DNA from: Magnetococcales bacterium
GTDB lineage: Bacteria; Pseudomonadota; Magnetococcia; Magnetococcales; JADGAQ01
Direction: 5' to 3'
Assembly: GCA_015231925.1 (NCBI GenBank)
Contig: JADGAQ010000002.1
Location: forward strand, 4,791 to 68,790
DNA length: 64,000 bases
Under the pieces are notes generated by a model that did no database searches, had not been told where the DNA came from, and worked only from the letters and a program-made list of their open reading frames with translations. The position numbers were made by a program, and so were the translations under genes. Position 1 is the first letter of the stretch, and each line of letters starts with the position of its first letter. Below, one piece after another: positions 18,441 to 28,193 of the stretch.

Positions 18441-18789
18441 GGTTTCGGGAAGATAACCGTTCCGCTTGACGAAGGTTTGGGGGGATTATCCCCCTTGACA
18501 TAGGGTGTTGTTTGCCGGTGTTTATGATATATATTATTTTTGATTCCGCATCAATCGCCTTGTTGCGGGATAACTCTTTCGGTCAAAGATTATGCCATCA
18601 TTTTGAGTCACATTATTTATCAGCAGGATCAAGAGCCGCCTGTTCTTTCATCCGGCGCCGTATTTCAATTGAAATGGCTGTTTTGATGGTATACAACGCC
18701 TTATCAGGAGCCTGCGGCGCGGGTTCCGGCGGCTGAACAGAATAATTATCCAATCGATTTCGTTCCTCCCACTATTGGGAAGGAGTGCC

Positions 18790-21312
18790 ATGAATATTCA
18801 GAATGCCAACCTCTTGGAAGCGTCGAGCCGCGTGGCTTTCGCGGCTCTGGTGCATGATCTGGGAAAGTTCGCCGAACGCGCCGAGATGGCCGTTGCCAAG
18901 GCGGAAATAGATCAGAGGAAAAAAGATTATTGTCCAAAAGGTTCTTCAAAATACACCCACGCCCACGCCGCCTATTCCGCCCTGGCCCTACAGGCTCTCA
19001 AGGGGATGCTGCCCGACTTCCAATCGGGAGACATGTTCCCTTTCGACACGTCGAACGAAACCCTGATCGCCGCTGCCGCCGGGCATCACGAGCCCAAAAC
19101 GTCCCTGCAACGCATCGTGGCCATCGCCGACCGCCTGGCCTCGGGATTCGAGCGCAGCAACTTCACAGAATACGAGCGACTCCAGGAAGGAGATGCCCCC
19201 AACGGTGTGGGACTGCATCGCGCCCGGCAATGGCCGATGCTGGAGACCATTTATCCGGATCAGCAGAATTTGAAGGAACCCAAACAACGTTTCCCCCTGA
19301 AGGCCCTGGCTCCGGAAACCCTTTTCCCCGGAGGGTGGAATCCGGGAACTCCAGACGAGGCCAAGGCCGAGTACCGGGAGCTGTGGGACGCTTTCATCTC
19401 CAAGTTGGAAACCCTCTCCCATCGCAACCGTCTACCCTTGTGGCTCGACCATTTCGACAGCCTGTTCCTCACCTTCACCCACGCCATCCCCTCGGCCACG
19501 GTGAGTCGTGAGAATGGACGTTTCACCAAAATCCCCACCGATGTCTCGCTTTACGACCACTCCAAGGCGGTGGCGGCTTTGGCGGTGGCGCTGTGGCGTT
19601 ATCACCTGGAAAACGGCACGGTGGAGGAGGTCTTTTCCAAGTCCAAATGGAACCACTGGGACGAACACGACGTAGCGGAATTTCTGCTGATTCAGGGTGA
19701 CTTCTCCGGCATTCAGGCCTTCATTTTCGACAGCGCGGAATCCACCTCCAAGGCGGCCAAACGGTTGCGGGGTCGCTCCTTCATGGTTTCGCTGCTGACG
19801 GAGCTGGCGGCGTTGAAGGTGCTGGAGACCCTGGAGCTGCCGTCCACCAGCCAGATCATCAACGCGGCGGGCCGGTTTCTCATCGTGGCTCCCAATCGGG
19901 AGACGGTGCAGCAAAAACTGGAAGGGGTGCGTCGCGAGCTGGACGAGTGGTTTTTGCAGCAAACCTTCGGGCAAAGCGGCATCGCTCTGGTGACCACGGA
20001 GGCCAGCCGGCAGGATTTCCATAAAGAGAGGTTCGCCGCCCTGATGGATCGGTTGTTTGTCGATGCCCAGCGCCGTAAACGGCAGCGGTTTGGCCTGTGC
20101 GGCGAGACACCTCCTGCACCGATCTTCGAAGCGGTGGACTATCCCAACGGGCCCTGCGTCGTGGATGGACACAAACCCGGAGAGATCCTGGCGGAGGGCA
20201 AATACCGCTGTCGGCTGTGCAACGATCAGATCACGGCAGGTGATCAACTGGTCAAGCAGAATCTCCTGTTGATCGGATACACCGTTCCGCAAGAATTACC
20301 CGCCCTGGAAGCCAGCTATTTCGGCTATCGGGTTGCTTTCGCCAGAGAAGAGAAAGGTGGGGATTGGCTGCGGGTGTGGGATTTCGCCCTGCCCGAAGCG
20401 GATGGGAAGACTCCCTTGTGGAACGGCTACGCCCGGCGGGCCATCAATGCCCATGTGCCCCGGAATGAGTCGGGCGAACTCCTCGATTTCGAAACGATTG
20501 CCAAAACGGCCATTGTGCCGGATGAATCGGGCAATCCTCGCGGTGTGGCCGCTCTGGGCATTCTCAAAGGCGATGTGGACAATCTGGGAGCGATTTTCCG
20601 CAAGGGGCTGGAGCATCCCACCTTTGCCCGCATGGCGGGTTTGAGCCGACAGGTCAATGCCTTTTTCGCCATCTGGCTGCCCTGGTGGTGTTCCAAAGAG
20701 TTTCCCAATACCTACACGGTCTTCGCCGGGGGGGATGACTTCTTTCTCATCGGCCCCTGGCTTGAACAGATTCATCTGGCGCGGGAGATTTGCAAAGCCT
20801 TGAGGCTATACGGCGGGAAGAATCCTAAGGTGCATCTTTCCGCCGGTCTGGTGATGACCAAACCGGACCTGCCGGTTCCCGCTTTGGACAGCCTTGCGGA
20901 GGAGGCGTTACAACACGCCAAGAACCATGCTGACAAAACCAAGAACGCCATCACCTGCTGGAACCGCACCGTCTCCTGGCAGGTTTTCGAGGAGATGATG
21001 CAGGCGGAAGAAGAGCTGACAACCCTGACGGCTCTGCTGGCCGAAGAGAAGGTGGAGATGAGTTCCGGCTATCTCTACTCCCTGTTGGATCTTTGCGACA
21101 GGGCGGAAAGCCCCCGCCCGGAAGATCAGCTCTGGCGCTCCTGGTTCGTCTACCGCACCTGGCGATTCGTGGTGGATCGCCTGCCGGAAGAAAAGCGGGA
21201 GCCATATTACAAGGATGAGTTTGTCGCCAAGATCGGCAAGCGGCTCCTCTGCCGCAGCGGCGATTACAAAATAGCCCTGTTCACCCATCTTTATCAGCGA
21301 CGGGAGGCGTGA
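18790..21312 (+). CDS. cas10: Type III CRISPR Cas10/Csm1
   Basis: HD domain (ALVHDLGKF, AAGHHE, IADRLASG), first palm domain (LLIQGDFSGIQAFIF), Zn-binding Cys cluster (CVVDGH...CRLC) and cyclase motif FAGGDDFFLIGPW. ATG 18790 follows GGAAGGAG; the track start at 18775 is TTG. Confidence 0.92.
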   Translation: MNIQNANLLEASSRVAFAALVHDLGKFAERAEMAVAKAEIDQRKKDYCPKGSSKYTHAHAAYSALALQALKGMLPDFQSGDMFPFDTSNETLIAAAAGHHEPKTSLQRIVAIADRLASGFERSNFTEYERLQEGDAPNGVGLHRARQWPMLETIYPDQQNLKEPKQRFPLKALAPETLFPGGWNPGTPDEAKAEYRELWDAFISKLETLSHRNRLPLWLDHFDSLFLTFTHAIPSATVSRENGRFTKIPTDVSLYDHSKAVAALAVALWRYHLENGTVEEVFSKSKWNHWDEHDVAEFLLIQGDFSGIQAFIFDSAESTSKAAKRLRGRSFMVSLLTELAALKVLETLELPSTSQIINAAGRFLIVAPNRETVQQKLEGVRRELDEWFLQQTFGQSGIALVTTEASRQDFHKERFAALMDRLFVDAQRRKRQRFGLCGETPPAPIFEAVDYPNGPCVVDGHKPGEILAEGKYRCRLCNDQITAGDQLVKQNLLLIGYTVPQELPALEASYFGYRVAFAREEKGGDWLRVWDFALPEADGKTPLWNGYARRAINAHVPRNESGELLDFETIAKTAIVPDESGNPRGVAALGILKGDVDNLGAIFRKGLEHPTFARMAGLSRQVNAFFAIWLPWWCSKEFPNTYTVFAGGDDFFLIGPWLEQIHLAREICKALRLYGGKNPKVHLSAGLVMTKPDLPVPALDSLAEEALQHAKNHADKTKNAITCWNRTVSWQVFEEMMQAEEELTTLTALLAEEKVEMSSGYLYSLLDLCDRAESPRPEDQLWRSWFVYRTWRFVVDRLPEEKREPYYKDEFVAKIGKRLLCRSGDYKIALFTHLYQRREA

Positions 21313-21693
21313 GTGAATACTACCGGAATTATTCTGAACAATATTCAGAAAGATTTATTTGATGGGGTCGCCGAGAGGGTAGCCAAGGATCTGGCTGCAA
21401 ATCGGCAATCCAATAAACCTACTCAATTGCGTCGTTTTTATGACGAGATTTGTCAATGGACGGAAAAAGTCGATGGCAAGGACGAGACTTACAAAACATT
21501 AAGCCCATTCATTCATATGCTGAACGCCAAGACAGCCTATGCCTTTGGTCGAAACAAACTGGTTGATGCCAACTTTGTAGAATTGATCCGTTACTGCCTG
21601 AACCAGGTCAATAATGCCGAAACCCTCGGCAATTTCAAACTCTTCATGGAAGCGGTGATGGGATTTTATAAATACGAGCGGCCCGGCAACTGA
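21313..21693 (+). CDS. csm2: Type III-A small subunit Csm2
   Basis: 126 aa, helical. Has the Csm2-like TQLRRFYDEI and NAKTAYAFGR motifs. The GTG start abuts the cas10 stop. Confidence 0.8.
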   Translation: MNTTGIILNNIQKDLFDGVAERVAKDLAANRQSNKPTQLRRFYDEICQWTEKVDGKDETYKTLSPFIHMLNAKTAYAFGRNKLVDANFVELIRYCLNQVNNAETLGNFKLFMEAVMGFYKYERPGN

Positions 21694-21703
21694 GGAACAG
21701 ACC

Positions 21704-22420
21704 ATGAAACTGACCCACATCGACGAAATCTCCGGGCAACTCCTTCTGTGCAGCGGGTTGCATATCGGCAGCGGCAACACCGAAATGCACATCGGCGGTT
21801 CGGACAATCCCGTGATCAAACATCCCCACACCAACCGACCCTACATTCCGGGCAGCAGCCTGAAAGGCAAAATCCGCAGCCTGCTGGAATGGCGTGTTGG
21901 GGGCAAGGCGATACTCGACGGAAAACCGATGAGTTATGGCAAACTTCAACAGCTTCCGGACGATGACCGCCCGGATGCCCTGACCATTCTCAAACTGTTC
22001 GGCAATTCCGCCGGTGAGAAGTTAAAAGATGAAGTGTACCAGGAAATCGGCCTTCCCCGCTTGATCTTTCGGGACTGCATGCTTTCGGATGAATGGGTAA
22101 CATCCGTTAATAACAAAAAGCTTTCTCTGACTGAAACCAAGATGGAAAACACCATCAACCGGGTTAGCGGTGTGGCGGAACACCCCCGCAGCATGGAGCG
22201 GGTTCCGGCGGGAGCGATATTCAATTTTTGCCTGGTGATCCGGCGATTCGGCGAGGAGGAGGAATTGCACGATCTCCTTTTCAAGGGTTTGAAACTGCTG
22301 GAGATGGACAGCCTGGGTGGTTCGGGTTCCCGCGGTTACGGCCGGGTTGAATTCAAACTGCATGCCCCGTGGCAGGAGAAACTCGACAAGACCAACCCCT
22401 GGAGTGACAACGGCAAATGA
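21704..22420 (+). CDS. csm3: RAMP protein Csm3 (Cas7 family)
   Basis: LHIGSG...PYIPGSSLKGKIRSLLEW and C-terminal GGSGSRGYGRV glycine loop. Confidence 0.9.
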   Translation: MKLTHIDEISGQLLLCSGLHIGSGNTEMHIGGSDNPVIKHPHTNRPYIPGSSLKGKIRSLLEWRVGGKAILDGKPMSYGKLQQLPDDDRPDALTILKLFGNSAGEKLKDEVYQEIGLPRLIFRDCMLSDEWVTSVNNKKLSLTETKMENTINRVSGVAEHPRSMERVPAGAIFNFCLVIRRFGEEEELHDLLFKGLKLLEMDSLGGSGSRGYGRVEFKLHAPWQEKLDKTNPWSDNGK

Positions 22421-23322
22421 ACACCCTGCTGATCACCCTGGAGCCCTTGACGGCTTTTGCCACGCCGTTGCACGGGGACACCCTCTTCGGGCAACTCTGC
22501 TGGGCGTTGCGCAATCGTCAGGGCGAAGCCTGGCTGGTGGAGCGGCTGCGGGGATACACCGCCAACGACCCCTTTCTGGTGGTTGGGGATGCGTTTCCCG
22601 AAGGGCACTTTCCCCGTCCCCGAAAACCCTCGAAGGGTTTTCAGAGCAAGGAAAATCGTCAGCAGGTCTGGTTGCCCCGCCGGGAGTGGGGATTGGACTG
22701 TGTGACTGAGGAGGCGATCTGGGGCAAGGACAAAACCCGCATCGAGCGGCCCCAGCCCCACAACAGCATCCATCGCCTGAGCGGAACCACGGGCGAGGGA
22801 GAGCAAGGGTTTGCGCCGTTCGTCACCCGGCAAATCTGGTTTCCCGAAGGAGCCCGCCTGGAGGTGTGGCTGCTTCACGATGCGGATCGCTTGCCGGAGG
22901 AGACGCTGCACACCGCGTTGAGCGATATCGGACAGTTGGGTTTTGGCAAGGAGGCTTCGAGGGGACTCGGCAAATACCGGGTGACTGCCATGCAACCCAC
23001 CCCCCTGCCCCGACAGGAAGGCTGCAACGCCTGGCTGACCCTGGGAAGTTGCGCCCCCCAAGGGTGCGGTTTCGACGCCGCCAACAGTTTTTATGAGCTT
23101 TTCACCCGTTTCGGTCGTCACGGGGATTGGCCGGCGCTGAGCGGACAACCCTTCAAGAAACCGATCCTGATGGCCGGTGCCGGCGCGGTGCTGACCCCCG
23201 CCGTGTGGCGGGATGTCCGCTTCGTCGGGCAGGGTTTGGGTGGCGAGGGCAAGCTGTCGAAGGTCATTGCGGATACCGTGCATCAAGGCTACTGCCCGGT
23301 AGTGGGCATTCGGGTGGATTGA
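22417..23322 (+). CDS. csm4: RAMP protein Csm4 (Cas5 family)
   Basis: The N-terminus LEPLTAFATPLHGDTLFGQLCWAL is typical of Csm4. Has the G-rich motif IGQLGFGKEASRGLGKY. ATGA overlap with csm3. Confidence 0.85.
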   Translation: MNTLLITLEPLTAFATPLHGDTLFGQLCWALRNRQGEAWLVERLRGYTANDPFLVVGDAFPEGHFPRPRKPSKGFQSKENRQQVWLPRREWGLDCVTEEAIWGKDKTRIERPQPHNSIHRLSGTTGEGEQGFAPFVTRQIWFPEGARLEVWLLHDADRLPEETLHTALSDIGQLGFGKEASRGLGKYRVTAMQPTPLPRQEGCNAWLTLGSCAPQGCGFDAANSFYELFTRFGRHGDWPALSGQPFKKPILMAGAGAVLTPAVWRDVRFVGQGLGGEGKLSKVIADTVHQGYCPVVGIRVD

Positions 23323-23335
23323 CGGGAGGGAAAAG

Positions 23336-24508
23336 ATGGCTGAACGATTTTTACAATCCCATCGTCTGGTGATTTCCACCCTTTCACCAGTCCACATCGG
23401 TTGCGGGGAGGATTACGAACCCACCAACTACGTTATTGATGACAACAATAATACGTTGCACTATTTCGAACCAAGCGACCTTTTGACGCTGCCGCAATGG
23501 CCGGAACGGCGTCAAGAATTGCTCAACCTGGTTACCCGACAGGGAGGAAGCCAGGTGGTTCGCGGCATACAGACCTTTTTCCACAAACTGCGCAAGGAAA
23601 TCGCCCCCCTTTCCAGACATCAGGTAAGCGTTTCCCAAGGAATTATGGACTCTTACAAGGAACGTATCGGGCAAGTGGCGCAGCGGGAGTTCGGCAACAA
23701 GGAGACCCTCAACTCTCTGGGAATCCAACGCGGGTATTACCACCCCCACTCCGGTCAACCGATTCTTCCCGGCAGCAGTTTGAAAGGAGCCGTGCGCACG
23801 GCCTTGCTGAATCACGCCCATGGGGGCCAGAAGTTGAAACAGCCTGCTCTGGCGGAGCAACGCACCAATTGGAAAAAGCTCTCCCCGCTTGATGTGACGT
23901 TACGGAATTTTCATGGAGATTTTCACGCCGATCCCCTGCGCCTGATAAAGATTACCGACAGCACCCCATTCCCCACCGAGAAGATCAAACCGCTCATCTG
24001 CTTTGCCGTCAATCGGAGCAAACGGCCCGACGATACGAAAGAGCGGCCCTTTCAAATGAGGGAATGCCTTCCCGGAATGGCCAAAAAGGCTGTAGAGGCC
24101 GAGTTGATTTTGCATGATGTGGGTGCGCTGCGCTCCGAGAAGTTACCGGCCGTGCGTCCGACCATGGAAGAGATTGTGAAACGCTGCAATGACTATTATC
24201 TGCATCGGTTGCAGGAGAGTTTGAAACTGCCGGGTGTAGATAAAGAATGGATCAACAAGATTCAAAGGTCTTTAGATAGAAATATCTGGAGGCTTCAAGA
24301 GGGAGACTCTTTTTTGCTGCGTCTGGGCATGGGCAGCGGGTCCGAAAGCATTACGCTCGATGGAGCAAGACATATTCATCAGCCACAACATAGACAGTGG
24401 GTGGAAAAGCCCTCGACGGTCTGGCTGTTTTCCGAGATGGGCAAGGATGCAAGGGAGGGGCTGTTACCTTTTGGCTGGGTGCTGGTGGCCTGGGATAAAC
24501 GGCCATGA
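23336..24508 (+). CDS. csm5: RAMP protein Csm5 (Cas7 family)
   Basis: STLSPVHIGCGE and ILPGSSLKGAVRTALL motifs. It sits in the csm5 position of the operon. Confidence 0.85.
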   Translation: MAERFLQSHRLVISTLSPVHIGCGEDYEPTNYVIDDNNNTLHYFEPSDLLTLPQWPERRQELLNLVTRQGGSQVVRGIQTFFHKLRKEIAPLSRHQVSVSQGIMDSYKERIGQVAQREFGNKETLNSLGIQRGYYHPHSGQPILPGSSLKGAVRTALLNHAHGGQKLKQPALAEQRTNWKKLSPLDVTLRNFHGDFHADPLRLIKITDSTPFPTEKIKPLICFAVNRSKRPDDTKERPFQMRECLPGMAKKAVEAELILHDVGALRSEKLPAVRPTMEEIVKRCNDYYLHRLQESLKLPGVDKEWINKIQRSLDRNIWRLQEGDSFLLRLGMGSGSESITLDGARHIHQPQHRQWVEKPSTVWLFSEMGKDAREGLLPFGWVLVAWDKRP

Positions 24509-25446
24509 CGATCTATTCCCTTCCCCTGGCGCGATACCGTCTGGAGTGGCGGGTGGAGACACCGTTGCGCTTGCCGGAGTATGCCGGATCAGCGTTGCGG
24601 GGGGTGTTTGGCGCGGCTCTGCGGGGGCTGGCCTGTATCACTCGGGAAAGGGAGTGTCCGGGTTGCGGCCTTTTGCGCACCTGCCCCTATTCCCTGATCT
24701 TCGAAACCCCTGCCCCACTGGTGGCCGAAGGGGAAAAAGGCTTTGCGGTGACACCCAATCCCTACATTATCGAGCCGCCGCCCTGGGGGGTGCGGGAGTA
24801 TGGTGTCGGGGAGGCGTTGGTGTTTCATCTGGTGCTGGTGGGACGGGCGTTGGGCCATTTGCCCCTGCTGATATTGGCCTGGCAACGCGCCCTTGGCCGG
24901 GGTGTCGGGGCGGGAGATGGCAAAGCCGAGTTGCAACAGGTGGTGCTGGAAAGGTCGAACGGCGAAGAGGTGGTTTTTCGGCGGGAGGAAGGGCTGCTGC
25001 GCGACCACGACACGCAGGTTGTCGTGCCATCCTGGCCGGGACAGGAGGCTCTCACTCTGCATCTGCTCACCCCGGTCCGCATTCAGCGCGACGGTTCGCC
25101 TCTCGGTCCGGGACGCCTCACGCCACGGGATCTGCTGGTGGGGTTGATGCGTCGTATCGGTCAGATGGCTCATCTACATGCGGATGTCGACCCGGAGATC
25201 GATTACTCGGAGCTGTCCCGGCAGGCGGGTTTGATTCCGTGTCATGGCAACCTCGCCTGGCGGGACTGGACACGCCGTTCCGCCCGACAGCAGCAAACCA
25301 TGGCCTTGGGCGGTGTCGTCGGTCGATGGACTTTGACGGGTGATCTGCAACCTTTCTGGCCGTTTCTTTATCTGGGGCAGTGGTTGCATGTGGGCAAAAA
25401 TGCCACCTTCGGGTTGGGTGGGTACCAACTTGAAACGCAGGTTTGA
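24505..25446 (+). CDS. cas6: Cas6-family CRISPR endoribonuclease
   Basis: 313 aa. C-terminal G-rich loop HVGKNATFGLGGYQL and N-terminal CPGC...C cluster. ATGA overlap with csm5. It is the last gene before the leader. Confidence 0.75.
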   Translation: MTIYSLPLARYRLEWRVETPLRLPEYAGSALRGVFGAALRGLACITRERECPGCGLLRTCPYSLIFETPAPLVAEGEKGFAVTPNPYIIEPPPWGVREYGVGEALVFHLVLVGRALGHLPLLILAWQRALGRGVGAGDGKAELQQVVLERSNGEEVVFRREEGLLRDHDTQVVVPSWPGQEALTLHLLTPVRIQRDGSPLGPGRLTPRDLLVGLMRRIGQMAHLHADVDPEIDYSELSRQAGLIPCHGNLAWRDWTRRSARQQQTMALGGVVGRWTLTGDLQPFWPFLYLGQWLHVGKNATFGLGGYQLETQV

Positions 25447-25471
25447 TGAATATCGACGAGGATGAGGCGTT

Positions 25472-25507
25472 TGTTAATCATCGCTCCGTTTGATAGGGGA
25501 TTGTAAC
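25472..25507 (+). repeat. Orphan degenerate CRISPR repeat
   Basis: tgTTAA-TCATCGCtCCGtTTGATAGGGGATTGtAAC vs the consensus CCTTAAGTCATCGCCCCGCTTGATAGGGGATTGAAAC. It shares the CGCTCCG variant with the degenerate terminal repeat of the array. Confidence 0.75.
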
Positions 25508-25679
25508 GGTTCTGACGGGGGAGCTTCAAGCCAGAATGGCGGAAGAGGTTAAAGAGCGCATCCGTGGGACGGACGATGCGGTGCAGATTTATCCGCTTTG
25601 TGCCAATTGTGCGGCCAAGGTGCAACGTTTGGGCAACGCCTGTGAGGCTCCTGGTGAGGAGGTGGTATTCGTGGTTTAA
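25497..25679 (+). pseudogene. cas2: cas2 3' remnant
   Basis: The open frame after the stop at 25494-25496 translates to ..VLTGELQARMAEEVKERIRGTDDAVQIYPLCANCAAKVQRLG.., which matches the Cas2 C-terminal pattern (D-x-hydrophobic-x-IY-x-L-C...C...G). The N-terminal half is absent and its place is taken by the orphan repeat. Not in the ORF track because it is under 60 aa from the ATG at 25536. Confidence 0.55.
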
Positions 25680-25721
25680 TGGCAGGCAGGGGATTTTTCA
25701 GAAAAATTATTTTTTTATCTT

Positions 25722-25779
25722 TTGACCTTCAATATGTTTCCTTTAAATAGTAAAAAAAGAAAATGTTCTGTCCGTGGCC
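25722..25779 (+). repeat. TIR60 unit (forward orientation) in the CRISPR leader region
   Basis: TTGACCTTCAATATGTTTCCTTTAAATAGTAAAAAAAGAAAATGTTCTGTCC, matching the family consensus TTGACTTTCAATATGTTATCTTTTAAGTATCAAAAAAAGGAAATGTTCTATCCTTTGAC. Confidence 0.8.
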
Positions 25780-25786
25780 TTTTCCT

Positions 25787-25815
25787 TTGATTATCCTTTT
25801 CAAATAATATATAAT
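25787..25815 (+). promoter_or_regulatory. Candidate sigma70 promoter for the CRISPR array
   Basis: TTGATT (25787-25792), a 17-bp spacer, then a perfect TATAAT (25810-25815). It lies about 215 bp upstream of the first repeat and faces the array. Confidence 0.55.
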
Positions 25816-25841
25816 ATCTAGCATCGATGTATCGAGATGTA

Positions 25842-25883
25842 GTCGTAACCCCGAAAACCCGATTTTCGACCGGGGGTTACGAC
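25842..25883 (+). other. Long bulged hairpin in the leader
   Basis: GTCGTAACCCCGAAAA-cccga-TTTTCG(accgg)GGGGTTACGAC: an 11-bp outer stem plus a 5-6-bp inner stem. Confidence 0.6.
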
Positions 25884-26029
25884 AAGACCCAACCCGTTGG
25901 AAAATAAGAATGTTTACAATCCCGCACTTTCTTTTCACCAGAAAAACCGGGGGCACGGTATGCCAGATGAAACGGTTACGAAAATGTGGTCAATTTCCGA
26001 TGGAAAATCAGGTAAATGTAGCATGGTCT

Positions 26030-27533
26030 CCTTAAGTCATCGCCCCGCTTGATAGGGGATTGAAACAGTTCGATATCGGAGCGGGTCTCGAAGTCCAAGT
26101 GTAAAACGGCCTTAAGTCATCGCCCCGCTTGATAGGGGATTGAAACTGTTTGAAAGCTTCCAGAAGGTCGCTCAACGCTCCCCTTAAGTCATCGCCCCGC
26201 TTGATAGGGGATTGAAACGTTGTCCATCAATAAAGACCAGTGCGCGACGAATTTCCCCTTAAGTCATCGCCCCGCTTGATAGGGGATTGAAACAGTTGAT
26301 TGCCTCGTCCATCCGGGTGATGGCTGCATCTCCTTAAGTCATCGCCCCGCTTGATAGGGGATTGAAACACATCGAACATACGTGTCTTCATAGGTGTAAC
26401 AAGCGCATCCCTTAAGTCATCGCCCCGCTTGATAGGGGATTGAAGCCGTCAAGAGGGGTGTCGCGTCACTCACCGTGGCTCGGATCTCCTTAAGTCATCA
26501 CCCCGCTTGATAGGGGATTGAAACACCAGATGCCCCGGCAGGATCCCGGACCGATAGACGCACCTTTAAGTCATCGCCCCGCTCGATAGGGGATTGAAAA
26601 CACAAACTTTACAGCGTTCGCTACGTTATCACAAAACTCTTTAAGTCATCGCCCCGCTCGATAGGGGATTGAAACACGTCAGCGTCTTGGATGATTTCGA
26701 GTTCCTTCACTTCCTGATCTTTAAGTCATCGCCCCGCTCGATAGGGGATTGAAACGGCAACCCAACATCATCCACCCCGACATTCTCCACCCGATGCTTT
26801 AAGTCATCGCCCCGCTCGATAGGGGATTGAAACAGAAAGAAAAAGCGAGCGCCGCTGGTTGTTTCGACATAGTGCCTTTAAGTCATCGCCCCGCTCGATA
26901 GGGGATTGAAACGCCTCACGGTCAATCCCATCGACCGCCCGAAGGCACCAGACTTTAAGTCATCGCCCCGCTCGATAGGGGATTGAAACCTACGCTCCGC
27001 CGGATTGGCTGTATCCATGGCCATTGCCTTTAAGTCATCGCCCCGCTCGATAGGGGATTGAAACCACTTCCGGCCCCCTCGGCGAAGGTGTAATCCTTCA
27101 CCAGTTCCTTAAGTCATCGCCCCGCTCGATAGGGGATTGAAACTCAACCAGTGCAATGATTGACTCGTCAACATACTCTACAATCCTTAAGTCATCGCCC
27201 CGCTCGATAGGGGATTGAAACGATGCGCCCTGCGCGCCGGTCAAAACGCCGTTTTCGGCTTCCTTAAGTCATCGCCCCGCTCGATAGGGGATTGAAACTT
27301 TTTTCGTTTGGCATGCGCCTGAAATATTCTTCCGCAGTTGCCTTAAGTCATCGCCCCGCTCGATAGGGGATTGAAACTCTGCCGGGCAGGCGGCCGGATC
27401 CCACAGTGTGCCGATACACCTTAAGTCATCGCCCCGCTTGATAGGGGATTGAAACTCAGGGTCGTAGCCGAAATCTGAACAAAAATCCTCGAAAGACCTT
27501 AAGTCATCGCTCCGCTTGATAGGGGATAAACCG
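26030..27533 (+). CRISPR. CRISPR array with 20 repeats and 19 spacers
   Basis: 37-bp repeat C[C/T]TTAAGTCATCGCCCCGCT[T/C]GATAGGGGATTGAAAC; spacers are 35-43 bp. First repeat is 26030-26066. The last repeat, 27497-27533, is degenerate (..CGCTCCGCTTGATAGGGGATAAACCG). The 3' ATTGAAAC matches the usual 8-nt crRNA 5' handle. The degenerate repeat distal to the cas genes places the leader at 25680-26029. Confidence 0.97.
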
Positions 27534-27552: not shown

Positions 27553-27581
27553 TTGACTTATAGTACTAGGTACGATATCAT
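27553..27581 (+). promoter_or_regulatory. Candidate hicAB promoter with an embedded palindrome
   Basis: TTGACT (27553-27558), a 17-bp spacer containing the 8-bp palindrome TAGTACTA, then TATCAT (27576-27581). The hicA ATG is at 27589. Confidence 0.45.
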
Positions 27582-27588
27582 CACTGCC

Positions 27589-27816
27589 ATGAACACCTCC
27601 GCCAAACTCCTTGATGCCATGCAGACCAACCCCACCGACTGGAGGATCACCCAATTGCAGACGGTGGCCCAGCAGTACGGGATCACCTGGCGGCACAAGG
27701 GGACAAGCCATTGTTATTTCATGCGTGAAGACGGAGCCGTCCTTTCTGTGCCAGCCCAGCGCCCCATCAAACCGATCTACATCAAAAAATTCATTCTGTT
27801 CGTGAAAGGGGGCTGA
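27589..27816 (+). CDS. hicA: HicA-family mRNA interferase toxin
   Basis: 75 aa. ...WRHKGTSHCYF...LSVPAQRPIKPIYIKKFILFV matches the HicA pattern (GSH..F, VP..kpIKP.Y.K.f). ATG 27589 is preferred over the TTG at 27553. Confidence 0.7.
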   Translation: MNTSAKLLDAMQTNPTDWRITQLQTVAQQYGITWRHKGTSHCYFMREDGAVLSVPAQRPIKPIYIKKFILFVKGG

Positions 27817-27818
27817 CC

Positions 27819-28193
27819 GTGTATAAACCCGAAGATTACCCCTTCGAAATCAGGCCACTGGATCCGGAAGAAGGCGGCGGCTACCTGATCTCCTTCCCGG
27901 ACTTCTGCGAATGCCTCTCGGACGGCGAAACACCGGCGGAAGCGATTGAAAACGGCTTGGATGCCCTGCGAGGCCTGATCACACTCTTTGTGGAAGAGGG
28001 ACGCCCCCTACCAGCACCCCTGTCCGGCGGCTTTTCCGGAAAATTCGTGGCCAGAGTTCCCAAAACCCTGCATGCCCATCTCTCCGCCAGAGCCAAAGCG
28101 GAAGGGGTCAGTCTGAATACGCTGGTGGTGGCCCTGATCGCCGAAGGACTGGGAAGACGGGAGGCGGGAGAGATCCGAAGCCGTTCTGCATGA
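27819..28193 (+). CDS. hicB: HicB-family antitoxin with C-terminal RHH DNA-binding domain
   Basis: HicB fold N-terminus (FEIRPLDPEEGGGYLISFPDFCECLSDGETPAEAIENG). C-terminus FSGKFVARVPKTLHAHLSARAKAEGVSLNTLVVALIAEGL. The GTG start is 2 nt after the hicA stop. Confidence 0.8.
   Translation: MYKPEDYPFEIRPLDPEEGGGYLISFPDFCECLSDGETPAEAIENGLDALRGLITLFVEEGRPLPAPLSGGFSGKFVARVPKTLHAHLSARAKAEGVSLNTLVVALIAEGLGRREAGEIRSRSA

What the first reader, a model, noticed from the sequence alone, without database searches (positions are those of the whole stretch)
25447..25679. Orphan degenerate repeat fused to a cas2 3' remnant directly after cas6: a footprint of adaptation-module loss
Between the cas6 stop (25446) and the leader lies a 36-bp sequence with about 5 differences from the array repeat. 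It is followed in frame by an open stretch encoding ..VLTGELQARMAEEVKERIRGTDDAVQIYPLCANCAAKVQRLG.., which reads like the C-terminal half of Cas2. No cas1 and no Cas2 N-terminus are present. The orphan repeat carries the same CGCTCCG substitution as the decayed terminal repeat of the array (27497-27533). That pattern fits a recombination or deletion between an old trailer repeat and the interior of cas2 that removed cas1 and the cas2 5' half. The array would then be frozen unless adaptation is supplied in trans.
Basis: partly seen in the sequence, partly recalled or inferred. Interest (0 to 1): 0.7.

Follow-up and report, generated by a model that had tools for sequence, protein, structure and literature searches.

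The report
Deletion scar: lone repeat plus cas2 stub
A bacterial type III-A CRISPR locus recently lost its spacer-acquisition genes in a 2.5-kb deletion, leaving one decayed repeat joined to the back half of cas2; this is ordinary gene decay, mapped here to the base.

Summary
A complete 37-nt degenerate CRISPR repeat (25471-25507) follows cas6. It has 7 ungapped mismatches to the array repeat, or 4 substitutions plus 1 deletion. It abuts the 3' 56 codons of cas2 (25509-25679), then the leader and a 20-repeat array.

The stub is 100% identical in protein to residues 37-92 of an intact 92-aa Cas2 from a related Magnetococcales MAG (L001). That locus reads cas6-cas02710-cas1-cas2-leader. About 2.5 kb there is replaced by 88 bp here.

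All nine relatives examined keep an ancillary module, cas1 and cas2 after cas6. None has a repeat in that position. No Cas1, Cas02710 or NE0113 homologue lies anywhere in the 64-kb window.

All 10 nucleotide differences between the stub and L001 cas2 are synonymous. The loss is therefore recent, and the repeat was probably already degenerate when it was joined.

The interference genes (cas10, csm2-5, cas6), the leader promoter and the array look intact. The locus should still defend but cannot add spacers by itself.

Two things remain unresolved: where the repeat and the 24-25 nt before it came from, and whether cas1-cas2 exists elsewhere in the genome. This is a new example of a known kind of decay, of modest interest.

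The parts
18791..21312 (+). cas10/csm1. The ORF lister starts it at TTG 18775; ATG 18791 is the likelier start. HD and GGDD motifs are present.
   Evidence: TIGR02578 E=2.4e-187; motifs H27-D28 and GGDD at 652; start region read
21313..24508 (+). csm2 (21313-21693), csm3 (21704-22420), csm4 (22417-23322), csm5 (23336-24508)
   Evidence: TIGR01870, TIGR02582, TIGR01903 and TIGR01899, all above their cut-offs
24505..25446 (+). cas6, intact (313 aa)
   Evidence: PF10040 E=2.5e-16; 81% identical to L001 Cas6 over 309 aa; dN/dS about 0.22 against L001
25447..25470 (+). 24-25 nt of unknown origin between the cas6 stop and the orphan repeat. It may be the tail of a lost spacer. The left deletion junction lies at about 25446-25452.
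   Evidence: Homology to the L001 and L003 cas6-downstream region fades here. No significant match in the deleted segments of relatives, the leader, the array or viral contigs
25471..25507 (+). Solitary, complete but degenerate CRISPR repeat. The stem CCCC/GGGG is weakened to CUCC/GGGG and the 5'-tag region reads ATTGTAAC instead of ATTGAAAC.
   Evidence: folds (-5.0 against -8.5 kcal/mol)
25508..25679 (+). cas2 pseudogene remnant (codons 37-92 plus the stop). The right deletion junction lies at 25507|25508, within 0-1 nt of the repeat's 3' end. PGAP calls the internal ATG ORF 25536-25679 a 47-aa 'Cas2'.
25680..26029 (+). CRISPR leader. It holds a promoter-like site at 25787-25815, a conserved hairpin at 25842-25885 and a second GGTTACGAAAA motif at about 25975-25985.
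26030..27533 (+). CRISPR array: 19 spacers, 20 repeats (37 nt). The last repeat (27498-27533) is degenerate and carries the same C-to-T change as the orphan.

Best explanation
This is a non-functional scar of a recent deletion of about 2.5 kb in a chromosomal type III-A (csm) locus of a Magnetococcales bacterium.

The ancestor read cas6 - ancillary gene(s) - cas1 - cas2 - leader - array, as every sampled relative still does. The event removed everything from just past the cas6 stop to cas2 codon 36. In its place are 61 bp: 24-25 nt of unknown origin and one already-decayed repeat unit, whose 3' end sits at the cas2 breakpoint.

What follows from the anatomy:
- The stub lacks the N-terminal 36 residues, including the conserved Asp of beta-1, and has no in-frame start before Met46. 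It cannot make Cas2.
- With cas1 gone as well, the locus cannot integrate spacers on its own.
- cas10, csm2-5, cas6, the leader promoter and the array are intact. crRNA production and interference should continue on a frozen set of 19 spacers, unless a compatible Cas1-Cas2 is encoded elsewhere.

Shown: the homology, the junctions, the absence of adaptation genes from the window, and the recency of the loss.
Inferred: the ancestral gene order, the functional consequences, and that the repeat was degenerate before the fusion.
Unknown: the molecular route that put the repeat there.
For: - Intact homologue and context: (P0001, 92 aa; L001 = cas6-cas02710-cas1-cas2).
- Collinearity on both flanks with a 2,521-bp gap.
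- Cas2 residues 37-92 match the window 100%, E=1e-33, and there is no Cas1, Cas02710 or NE0113 hit in the window.
- Junction alignments.
- Conserved gene order in relatives L002-L005 and L007-L010. None has a repeat between cas6 and cas1.
- Stub against L001: 10 synonymous and 0 non-synonymous differences; cas6 has dS 0.64 and dN 0.139.
- P(10 random substitutions are all synonymous) is about 5e-6. Neutral time since the loss is at most about 0.024 substitutions per site. That predicts at most 0.9 changes in the repeat, against the 4-5 seen (P = 0.002-0.016).
- The rest of the window holds housekeeping and signalling genes and no second CRISPR-Cas system.
- Degraded solitary repeats near type III loci are common and judged non-functional in a systematic survey (bioRxiv 10.1101/2023.03.03.530964).
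Against: - No relative closer than 81% Cas6 identity was found, so the immediate pre-deletion state is inferred rather than seen.
- A single simple deletion needs a repeat already sitting after cas6, which none of nine relatives shows. At least one further event, or a complex event, is needed.
- Zero non-synonymous change in the stub is also what continued selection on a peptide would give.
- The contig comes from a metagenome bin and the raw reads could not be checked.
Confidence: 0.85

Rival explanations
1. The solitary repeat is a working element. It is read through from the cas operon and cut by Cas6. The product is either a defined 3' end for the cas mRNA or a crRNA-like RNA (5' tag AUUGUAAC plus cas2-derived guide) that loads into the Csm complex as a regulatory or decoy guide, like the CreR, CreA or crlRNA mini-arrays of type I and V-A systems.
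For: - It lies 25 nt after cas6 with no terminator-like site between them.
- The repeat is full length, keeps a 4-bp stem through a G-U pair, and keeps 7 of 8 tag bases.
- Type III crRNA 3' ends are trimmed by host nucleases, so one repeat could suffice (my own knowledge of Csm crRNA maturation).
Against: - There is only one repeat, not a mini-array.
- It is absent from all nine relatives.
- The would-be guide is simply collinear cas2 sequence and has no other match in the window longer than 11 nt.
- Such an RNA would pair only with antisense cas2 RNA.
- The survey found no conserved or targeted mini-arrays in type III loci.
- The fold is no better than shuffled sequence (z = -0.05).
Confidence: 0.06
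2. The 47-56-residue C-terminal Cas2 fragment is still translated (from ATG 25536) and kept by selection for some new role. That would explain why it has no amino-acid changes.
For: - 0 non-synonymous against 10 synonymous differences.
- An in-frame ATG with a GGAG about 12 nt upstream (sequence).
- PGAP annotates it as a gene.
Against: - It lacks the first three strands and helix 1 of the Cas2 fold and the catalytic Asp.
- Its partner cas1 is absent.
- A recent deletion explains the same pattern without a new function.
- No second genome carries such a fragment; the protein search with the stub found only itself and the intact L001 Cas2.
Confidence: 0.04
3. Assembly or binning artefact: the contig is a chimera joined at CRISPR repeats, and the real genome has an intact cas6-...-cas1-cas2.
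For: The source is a metagenome-assembled genome. Repeats are a known cause of misjoins (general knowledge).
Against: - The orphan shares at most 14 consecutive bases with any array repeat, shorter than usual assembly k-mers.
- It carries private substitutions.
- A misjoin at a repeat would not place a repeat against the interior of cas2.
- Both flanks are collinear with L001 in the expected order and orientation.
Confidence: 0.04

Closest known systems
Type III CRISPR-Cas loci without their own adaptation module
   Same: An effector module plus array with no cas1-cas2. Such loci are expected to keep defending with existing spacers or to rely on a Cas1-Cas2 encoded elsewhere. The classification papers PMC12669027 and PMC6452270, and the Marinomonas type III-B/I-F study PMC5576922, surfaced; I did not open them, and their content is cited from my own knowledge.
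   Different: Here the loss is caught in the act. A cas2 3' fragment still identical in protein to a functional relative marks the breakpoint, and the leader and array are those that the lost module served.
Degraded standalone repeats and mini-arrays near type III loci (Shmakov et al. 2023, bioRxiv 10.1101/2023.03.03.530964)
   Same: A solitary degenerate repeat close to the array of a type III locus, not conserved in relatives and with no target. That is the class the survey judged to be degraded, non-functional repeats. Further examples turned up here in L003 and in L004/L005.
   Different: The survey found no excess of such repeats between type III cas genes. This one sits between cas6 and a cas2 remnant, and its 3' end coincides with a deletion breakpoint.
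crRNA-like regulatory mini-arrays (CreA/CreR, scaRNA) of type I, II and V-A systems
   Same: A degenerate repeat derived from the CRISPR array, inside a cas locus and downstream of a cas gene.
   Different: There is no second repeat, no partially matching pseudo-spacer, no conservation, and the effector is RNA-targeting type III.
cas2 nonsense allele in related loci L004/L005
   Same: Independent inactivation of cas2 in the same clade of Magnetococcales type III-A loci, beside a large array.
   Different: That is a point mutation (in-frame TAG at codon 60) with cas1 retained, not a deletion with a repeat at the junction.

Membership tests
Cas2 (PF09827 / TIGR01573) | Significant sequence similarity to Cas2 | tested here: met
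   56/56 identity to residues 37-92 of an intact Cas2, E=1e-33. The profile hits are sub-threshold because only half the domain is present: TIGR01573 scores 21 bits against a 24.5 cut-off, and PF09827 scores 14 bits against 23.8.
Cas2 (PF09827 / TIGR01573) | Complete domain of about 90 aa with the N-terminal beta-1 strand, the conserved Asp, and a start codon | tested here: not met
   Homology starts at codon 37. Upstream lie repeat sequence and two stop codons. The feature is therefore filed as a pseudogene fragment, not a Cas2 gene.
Cas2 (PF09827 / TIGR01573) | Partner cas1 adjacent | tested here: not met
   No Cas1 match in the 64-kb window with four related Cas1 queries, best E=0.11. The rest of the genome is not testable here.
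CRISPR repeat of the adjacent array | Sequence match over the full repeat length, same strand | tested here: met
   29/36 ungapped, and a full-length covariance-model match at 25471-25507.
CRISPR repeat of the adjacent array | Member of a regularly spaced repeat-spacer series | tested here: not met
   It is a single copy, 523 bp before repeat 1, with no second repeat-like sequence within 12 mismatches nearby.
Type III-A (Csm) interference module | cas10/csm1, csm2, csm3, csm4, csm5 and cas6 in one operon | tested here: met
   The five csm equivalog models score above their cut-offs; cas6 is identified by Pfam PF10040.
crRNA-like regulatory mini-array (CreR/CreA class) | Two repeat-like sequences flanking a pseudo-spacer with partial complementarity to a promoter, conserved among related loci | tested here: not met
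   One repeat only. It is absent from nine relatives. The downstream 43 nt have no match longer than 11 nt elsewhere in the window.

The most novel reading that the evidence does not exclude
The breakpoint lies within 0-1 nt of the repeat-spacer boundary. That is the bond Cas1-Cas2 attacks during spacer integration. The deletion may therefore have been made by the integrase itself. In this reading, a broken and resected DNA end inside cas2 was used as a still-attached 'prespacer' 3'-OH and joined to the spacer-side edge of a stray repeat. The adaptation module would then have destroyed its own genes. Natural scars of integrase-mediated genome rearrangement would be a new consequence of CRISPR adaptation.
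Probability: 0.04. Interest if true: 0.7.

Novelty: new member of a known kind. Interest (0 to 1): 0.3.

Why it matters
The finding gives a base-resolved, datable example of how a type III locus loses its adaptation module while keeping interference. Such intermediates are rarely caught, because the remnants decay quickly.

Practical value:
- The 47-aa 'Cas2' in the public annotation is a pseudogene fragment.
- This locus should be scored as lacking adaptation genes.
- Its 19 spacers should be read as a closed record.

The coincidence of the breakpoint with the repeat boundary is a small lead. Other cas pseudogene junctions could be checked for the same pattern.

Tried and rejected
1. A partial second repeat at the end of cas6. 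CTTGAAAC at 25429-25436 lies 35 nt before the orphan. Rejected: the same TTGAA(A/G)C lies in the homologous cas6 3' end of L003, so it is native cas6 sequence.

2. Deletion driven by self-targeting. None of the 19 spacers matches the window or the deleted genes of relatives beyond 10-13 nt chance hits.

3. Origin of the 24-25 nt filler. There is no significant ungapped match in the deleted segments of L001-L003 or in the window's leader and array (the best hit, 17/25 in L003, was reached by 7 of 200 shuffles). There is no exact match in viral contigs.

4. Tandem duplication of the terminal array unit as the source. The spacer before the terminal repeat is unlike the filler, and the terminal repeat has a different, degraded 3' end (sequence).

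5. Finding the same repeat elsewhere. Zero hits in genome contigs and in metagenome contigs. The Cas6-based genome scan also found nothing.

6. Locating the source contig. Exact look-ups of the window's Cas6 and of the 47-aa ORF are not on record.

7. P0123, a 1,223-aa protein clustered with the 47-aa ORF, is an unrelated SIR2-domain protein. This is a clustering artefact.

8. Recent transfer of the cas2'-leader module from an L001-like donor. The leader is only about 60% identical to L001's, so this is not supported.

Full report
**What is in the sequence.** The window carries a complete type III-A interference operon on the + strand: cas10 (about 18791-21312), csm2, csm3, csm4, csm5 and cas6 (24505-25446). 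All were identified with curated models. Cas10 keeps its HD and GGDD motifs.

After the cas6 stop come, in order:
- 24-25 nt with no match to anything;
- a solitary repeat-like sequence;
- an open frame ending at 25679;
- a 350-bp AT-rich leader with a promoter-like site (25787-25815);
- an array of 20 repeats and 19 spacers (26030-27533);
- a HicA/HicB-like pair.

The solitary repeat is 25471-25507. Ungapped, it differs from the array repeat at 7 of 36 positions. With one gap, it differs by 4 substitutions and 1 deletion. A covariance model for a CRISPR repeat family matches it end to end with about the same score as the true repeats. Nothing else in 64 kb, on either strand, comes within 11 mismatches, so chance is excluded.

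The frame that follows is Cas2-like by profile, but below the cut-offs because only half the domain is present. TIGR01573 gives E=2.9e-4 on positions 43-86 of 96.

The decisive result came from a protein search with the 60-residue stretch. It found an intact 92-aa Cas2 (P0001) from another Magnetococcales metagenome bin, identical over the shared part. By tblastn, residues 37-92 of that protein equal window 25509-25676, 56/56, E=1e-33. Two more distant Cas2 proteins match the same stretch at 52-55%.

**The deletion mapped.** P0001 lies on a 3.9-kb contig (L001) that reads cas6 - cas02710-family gene - cas1 - cas2 - leader. L001 1-1011 aligns with window 24414-25424 at 83%. L001 3533-3916 aligns with window 25513-25882. 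The 2,521 bp between them have no counterpart; the window has 88 bp instead.

Alignments place the two junctions as follows:
- Right junction: 25507|25508, within 0-1 nt of the 3' end of the repeat.
- Left junction: about 25446-25452, at the cas6 stop and the start codon of the next gene.

I first suspected that CTTGAAAC at the end of cas6 was a second, partial repeat. The homologous position in L003 has the same motif, so it is native cas6 sequence.

**The derived state is the window's.** Eight further loci from this Cas6 clade were read (L002-L005, L007-L010; Cas6 61-70% identical). Each has cas6, then an ancillary module, then cas1-cas2 and the array, wherever the contig reaches that far. 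The ancillary module is either cas02710 or VVA1548 plus a 400-aa protein. Most also have an NE0113-family gene before cas10. None has a repeat between cas6 and cas1.

The window has no Cas1, Cas02710, NE0113 or VVA1548 homologue anywhere. Its other large genes are housekeeping and signalling genes such as UvrA, a class I Glu/Gln tRNA synthetase, and GGDEF/EAL and histidine kinases. The locus is chromosomal, and no second CRISPR-Cas system lies nearby.

**Timing.** The stub differs from L001 cas2 at 10 nucleotides, all synonymous (dS 0.31, dN 0). Over the same lineages, cas6 has dS 0.64 and dN 0.139.

Ten randomly placed substitutions would all be synonymous with probability about 5e-6. The stub was therefore under protein-level selection for nearly the whole time since the split from L001. 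At 95% confidence, the neutral divergence since selection ended is at most about 0.024 substitutions per site.

Over that span a 37-nt repeat should collect at most 0.9 changes, yet it shows 4-5 (P = 0.002-0.016). Two readings fit:
- The repeat was already degenerate when it was joined to cas2.
- The stub is still under selection. I consider this unlikely, because the fragment lacks the N-terminal 36 residues, lacks a start before Met46, and has no cas1 partner.

**What I could not resolve.** The source of the repeat and the 24-25 nt before it is unknown. They match nothing in the deleted segments of relatives, the leader, the array or viral contigs. A single simple deletion would need a stray repeat already sitting after cas6, which no relative shows. 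The alternatives are a two-step history or a complex event.

Stray degenerate repeats are common around these loci. L003 has a two-repeat remnant upstream of its operon. L004/L005 have a solitary repeat of the window's own repeat family 1.3 kb past their array. A published survey likewise found degraded, unconserved repeats near 10-14% of type III loci and judged them non-functional.

The C-to-T change shared with the terminal repeat is real. As a single transition it is weak evidence of common origin.

**Consequences (inferred).** Interference genes, cas6, the leader promoter and the array are intact, so crRNA production and targeting should continue. Spacer uptake needs Cas1-Cas2, which this locus no longer encodes.

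Whether another copy exists in the genome is untested. The assembly is absent from the searchable collections. A search with L001 Cas1 found no relative on a 78,001-bp contig. Ten Magnetococcales Cas1 hits from the same NCBI series were checked, and none has an accession near the window's MBF0307998. This is weak negative evidence only.

**Rivals.**
- A working crRNA-like or Cas6-site element is not supported. There is one repeat, no conservation, no target, and the 'guide' is collinear cas2 sequence.
- A misassembly is unlikely. The orphan shares at most 14 consecutive bases with array repeats, and both flanks are collinear with L001. Read mapping would settle it.

**Most novel reading not excluded.** The breakpoint coincides with the repeat-spacer boundary, which I estimate would happen about 3-4% of the time by chance. 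This could mean Cas1-Cas2 chemistry made the junction. I give that about 4%.

**Verdict.** This is a real, recently formed deletion scar: a cas2 pseudogene fragment fused to a decayed solitary repeat. It marks the loss of the adaptation module, and of an ancillary gene, from a type III-A locus. It is a new, well-resolved example of a known kind of decay, of modest interest.

Noticed in passing
L004 13498-13776 and L005 13498-13776: In two related assemblies with identical DNA here, cas2 carries an in-frame TAG at codon 60 (...NTED*VHIHPLC...VFVV*), next to cas1 and a 52-repeat array. This is an independent cas2 inactivation in the same clade.
   Followed up: partly
window 25842-25885 and about 25975-25985; alignment A3: All seven leaders compared share invariant CGTAACC ... 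GGTTACGA hairpin arms around a variable loop (window fold -20.5 kcal/mol, z = -3.5). They also share a second GGTTACGAAAA about 55 nt before repeat 1. This may be a protein-binding or leader-anchoring motif for this family.
   Followed up: partly
window 18441-18790 and 25447-25679: Cas10 keeps the GGDD cyclase motif, but the window has no CARF-type ancillary gene. Relatives have an NE0113-family gene before cas10 (seven of the eight whose contigs extend upstream of cas10) and cas02710 or VVA1548 after cas6. Any cyclic-oligoadenylate signal would have no effector within the window.
   Followed up: partly
L003 1808-1917: A two-repeat degenerate mini-array with a 38-nt spacer lies about 220 bp upstream of the NE0113 gene, at the head of the operon.
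   Followed up: no
L004 and L005 19179-19214: A solitary repeat, ATTAAGTCTTCGCCCCGCTTGATAGGGGATTGCGCC, is closer to the window's repeat (5 mismatches) than to the loci's own array repeat. It lies 1.3 kb beyond their array. It hints at past exchange or replacement of arrays between these lineages.
   Followed up: no
window 26030-27533: The array has blocks of repeat variants: repeats 1-7 have T at position 20, repeats 8-18 have C, and repeat 19 has T again. Position 2 is T only in repeats 8-14. This suggests successive mutations of the leader-proximal repeat, or recombination between arrays.
   Followed up: no
window 18791-18799 and 25446-25454: The likely cas10 start (ATGAATATT) and the 15-codon ORF that overlaps the cas6 stop (ATGAATATC) share ATGAATAT. 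This is probably chance; about two occurrences of an 8-mer are expected in 64 kb.
   Followed up: no
window 27553-28193: A HicA-like ORF (no family hit) and a HicB antitoxin gene (PF05534, E=1e-10) lie directly after the array's terminal repeat.
   Followed up: no
protein cluster of P0002: The 90% cluster of the 47-aa Cas2 fragment also lists an unrelated 1,223-aa SIR2-domain protein (P0123, locus L006). This is a clustering artefact in the protein collection.
   Followed up: yes
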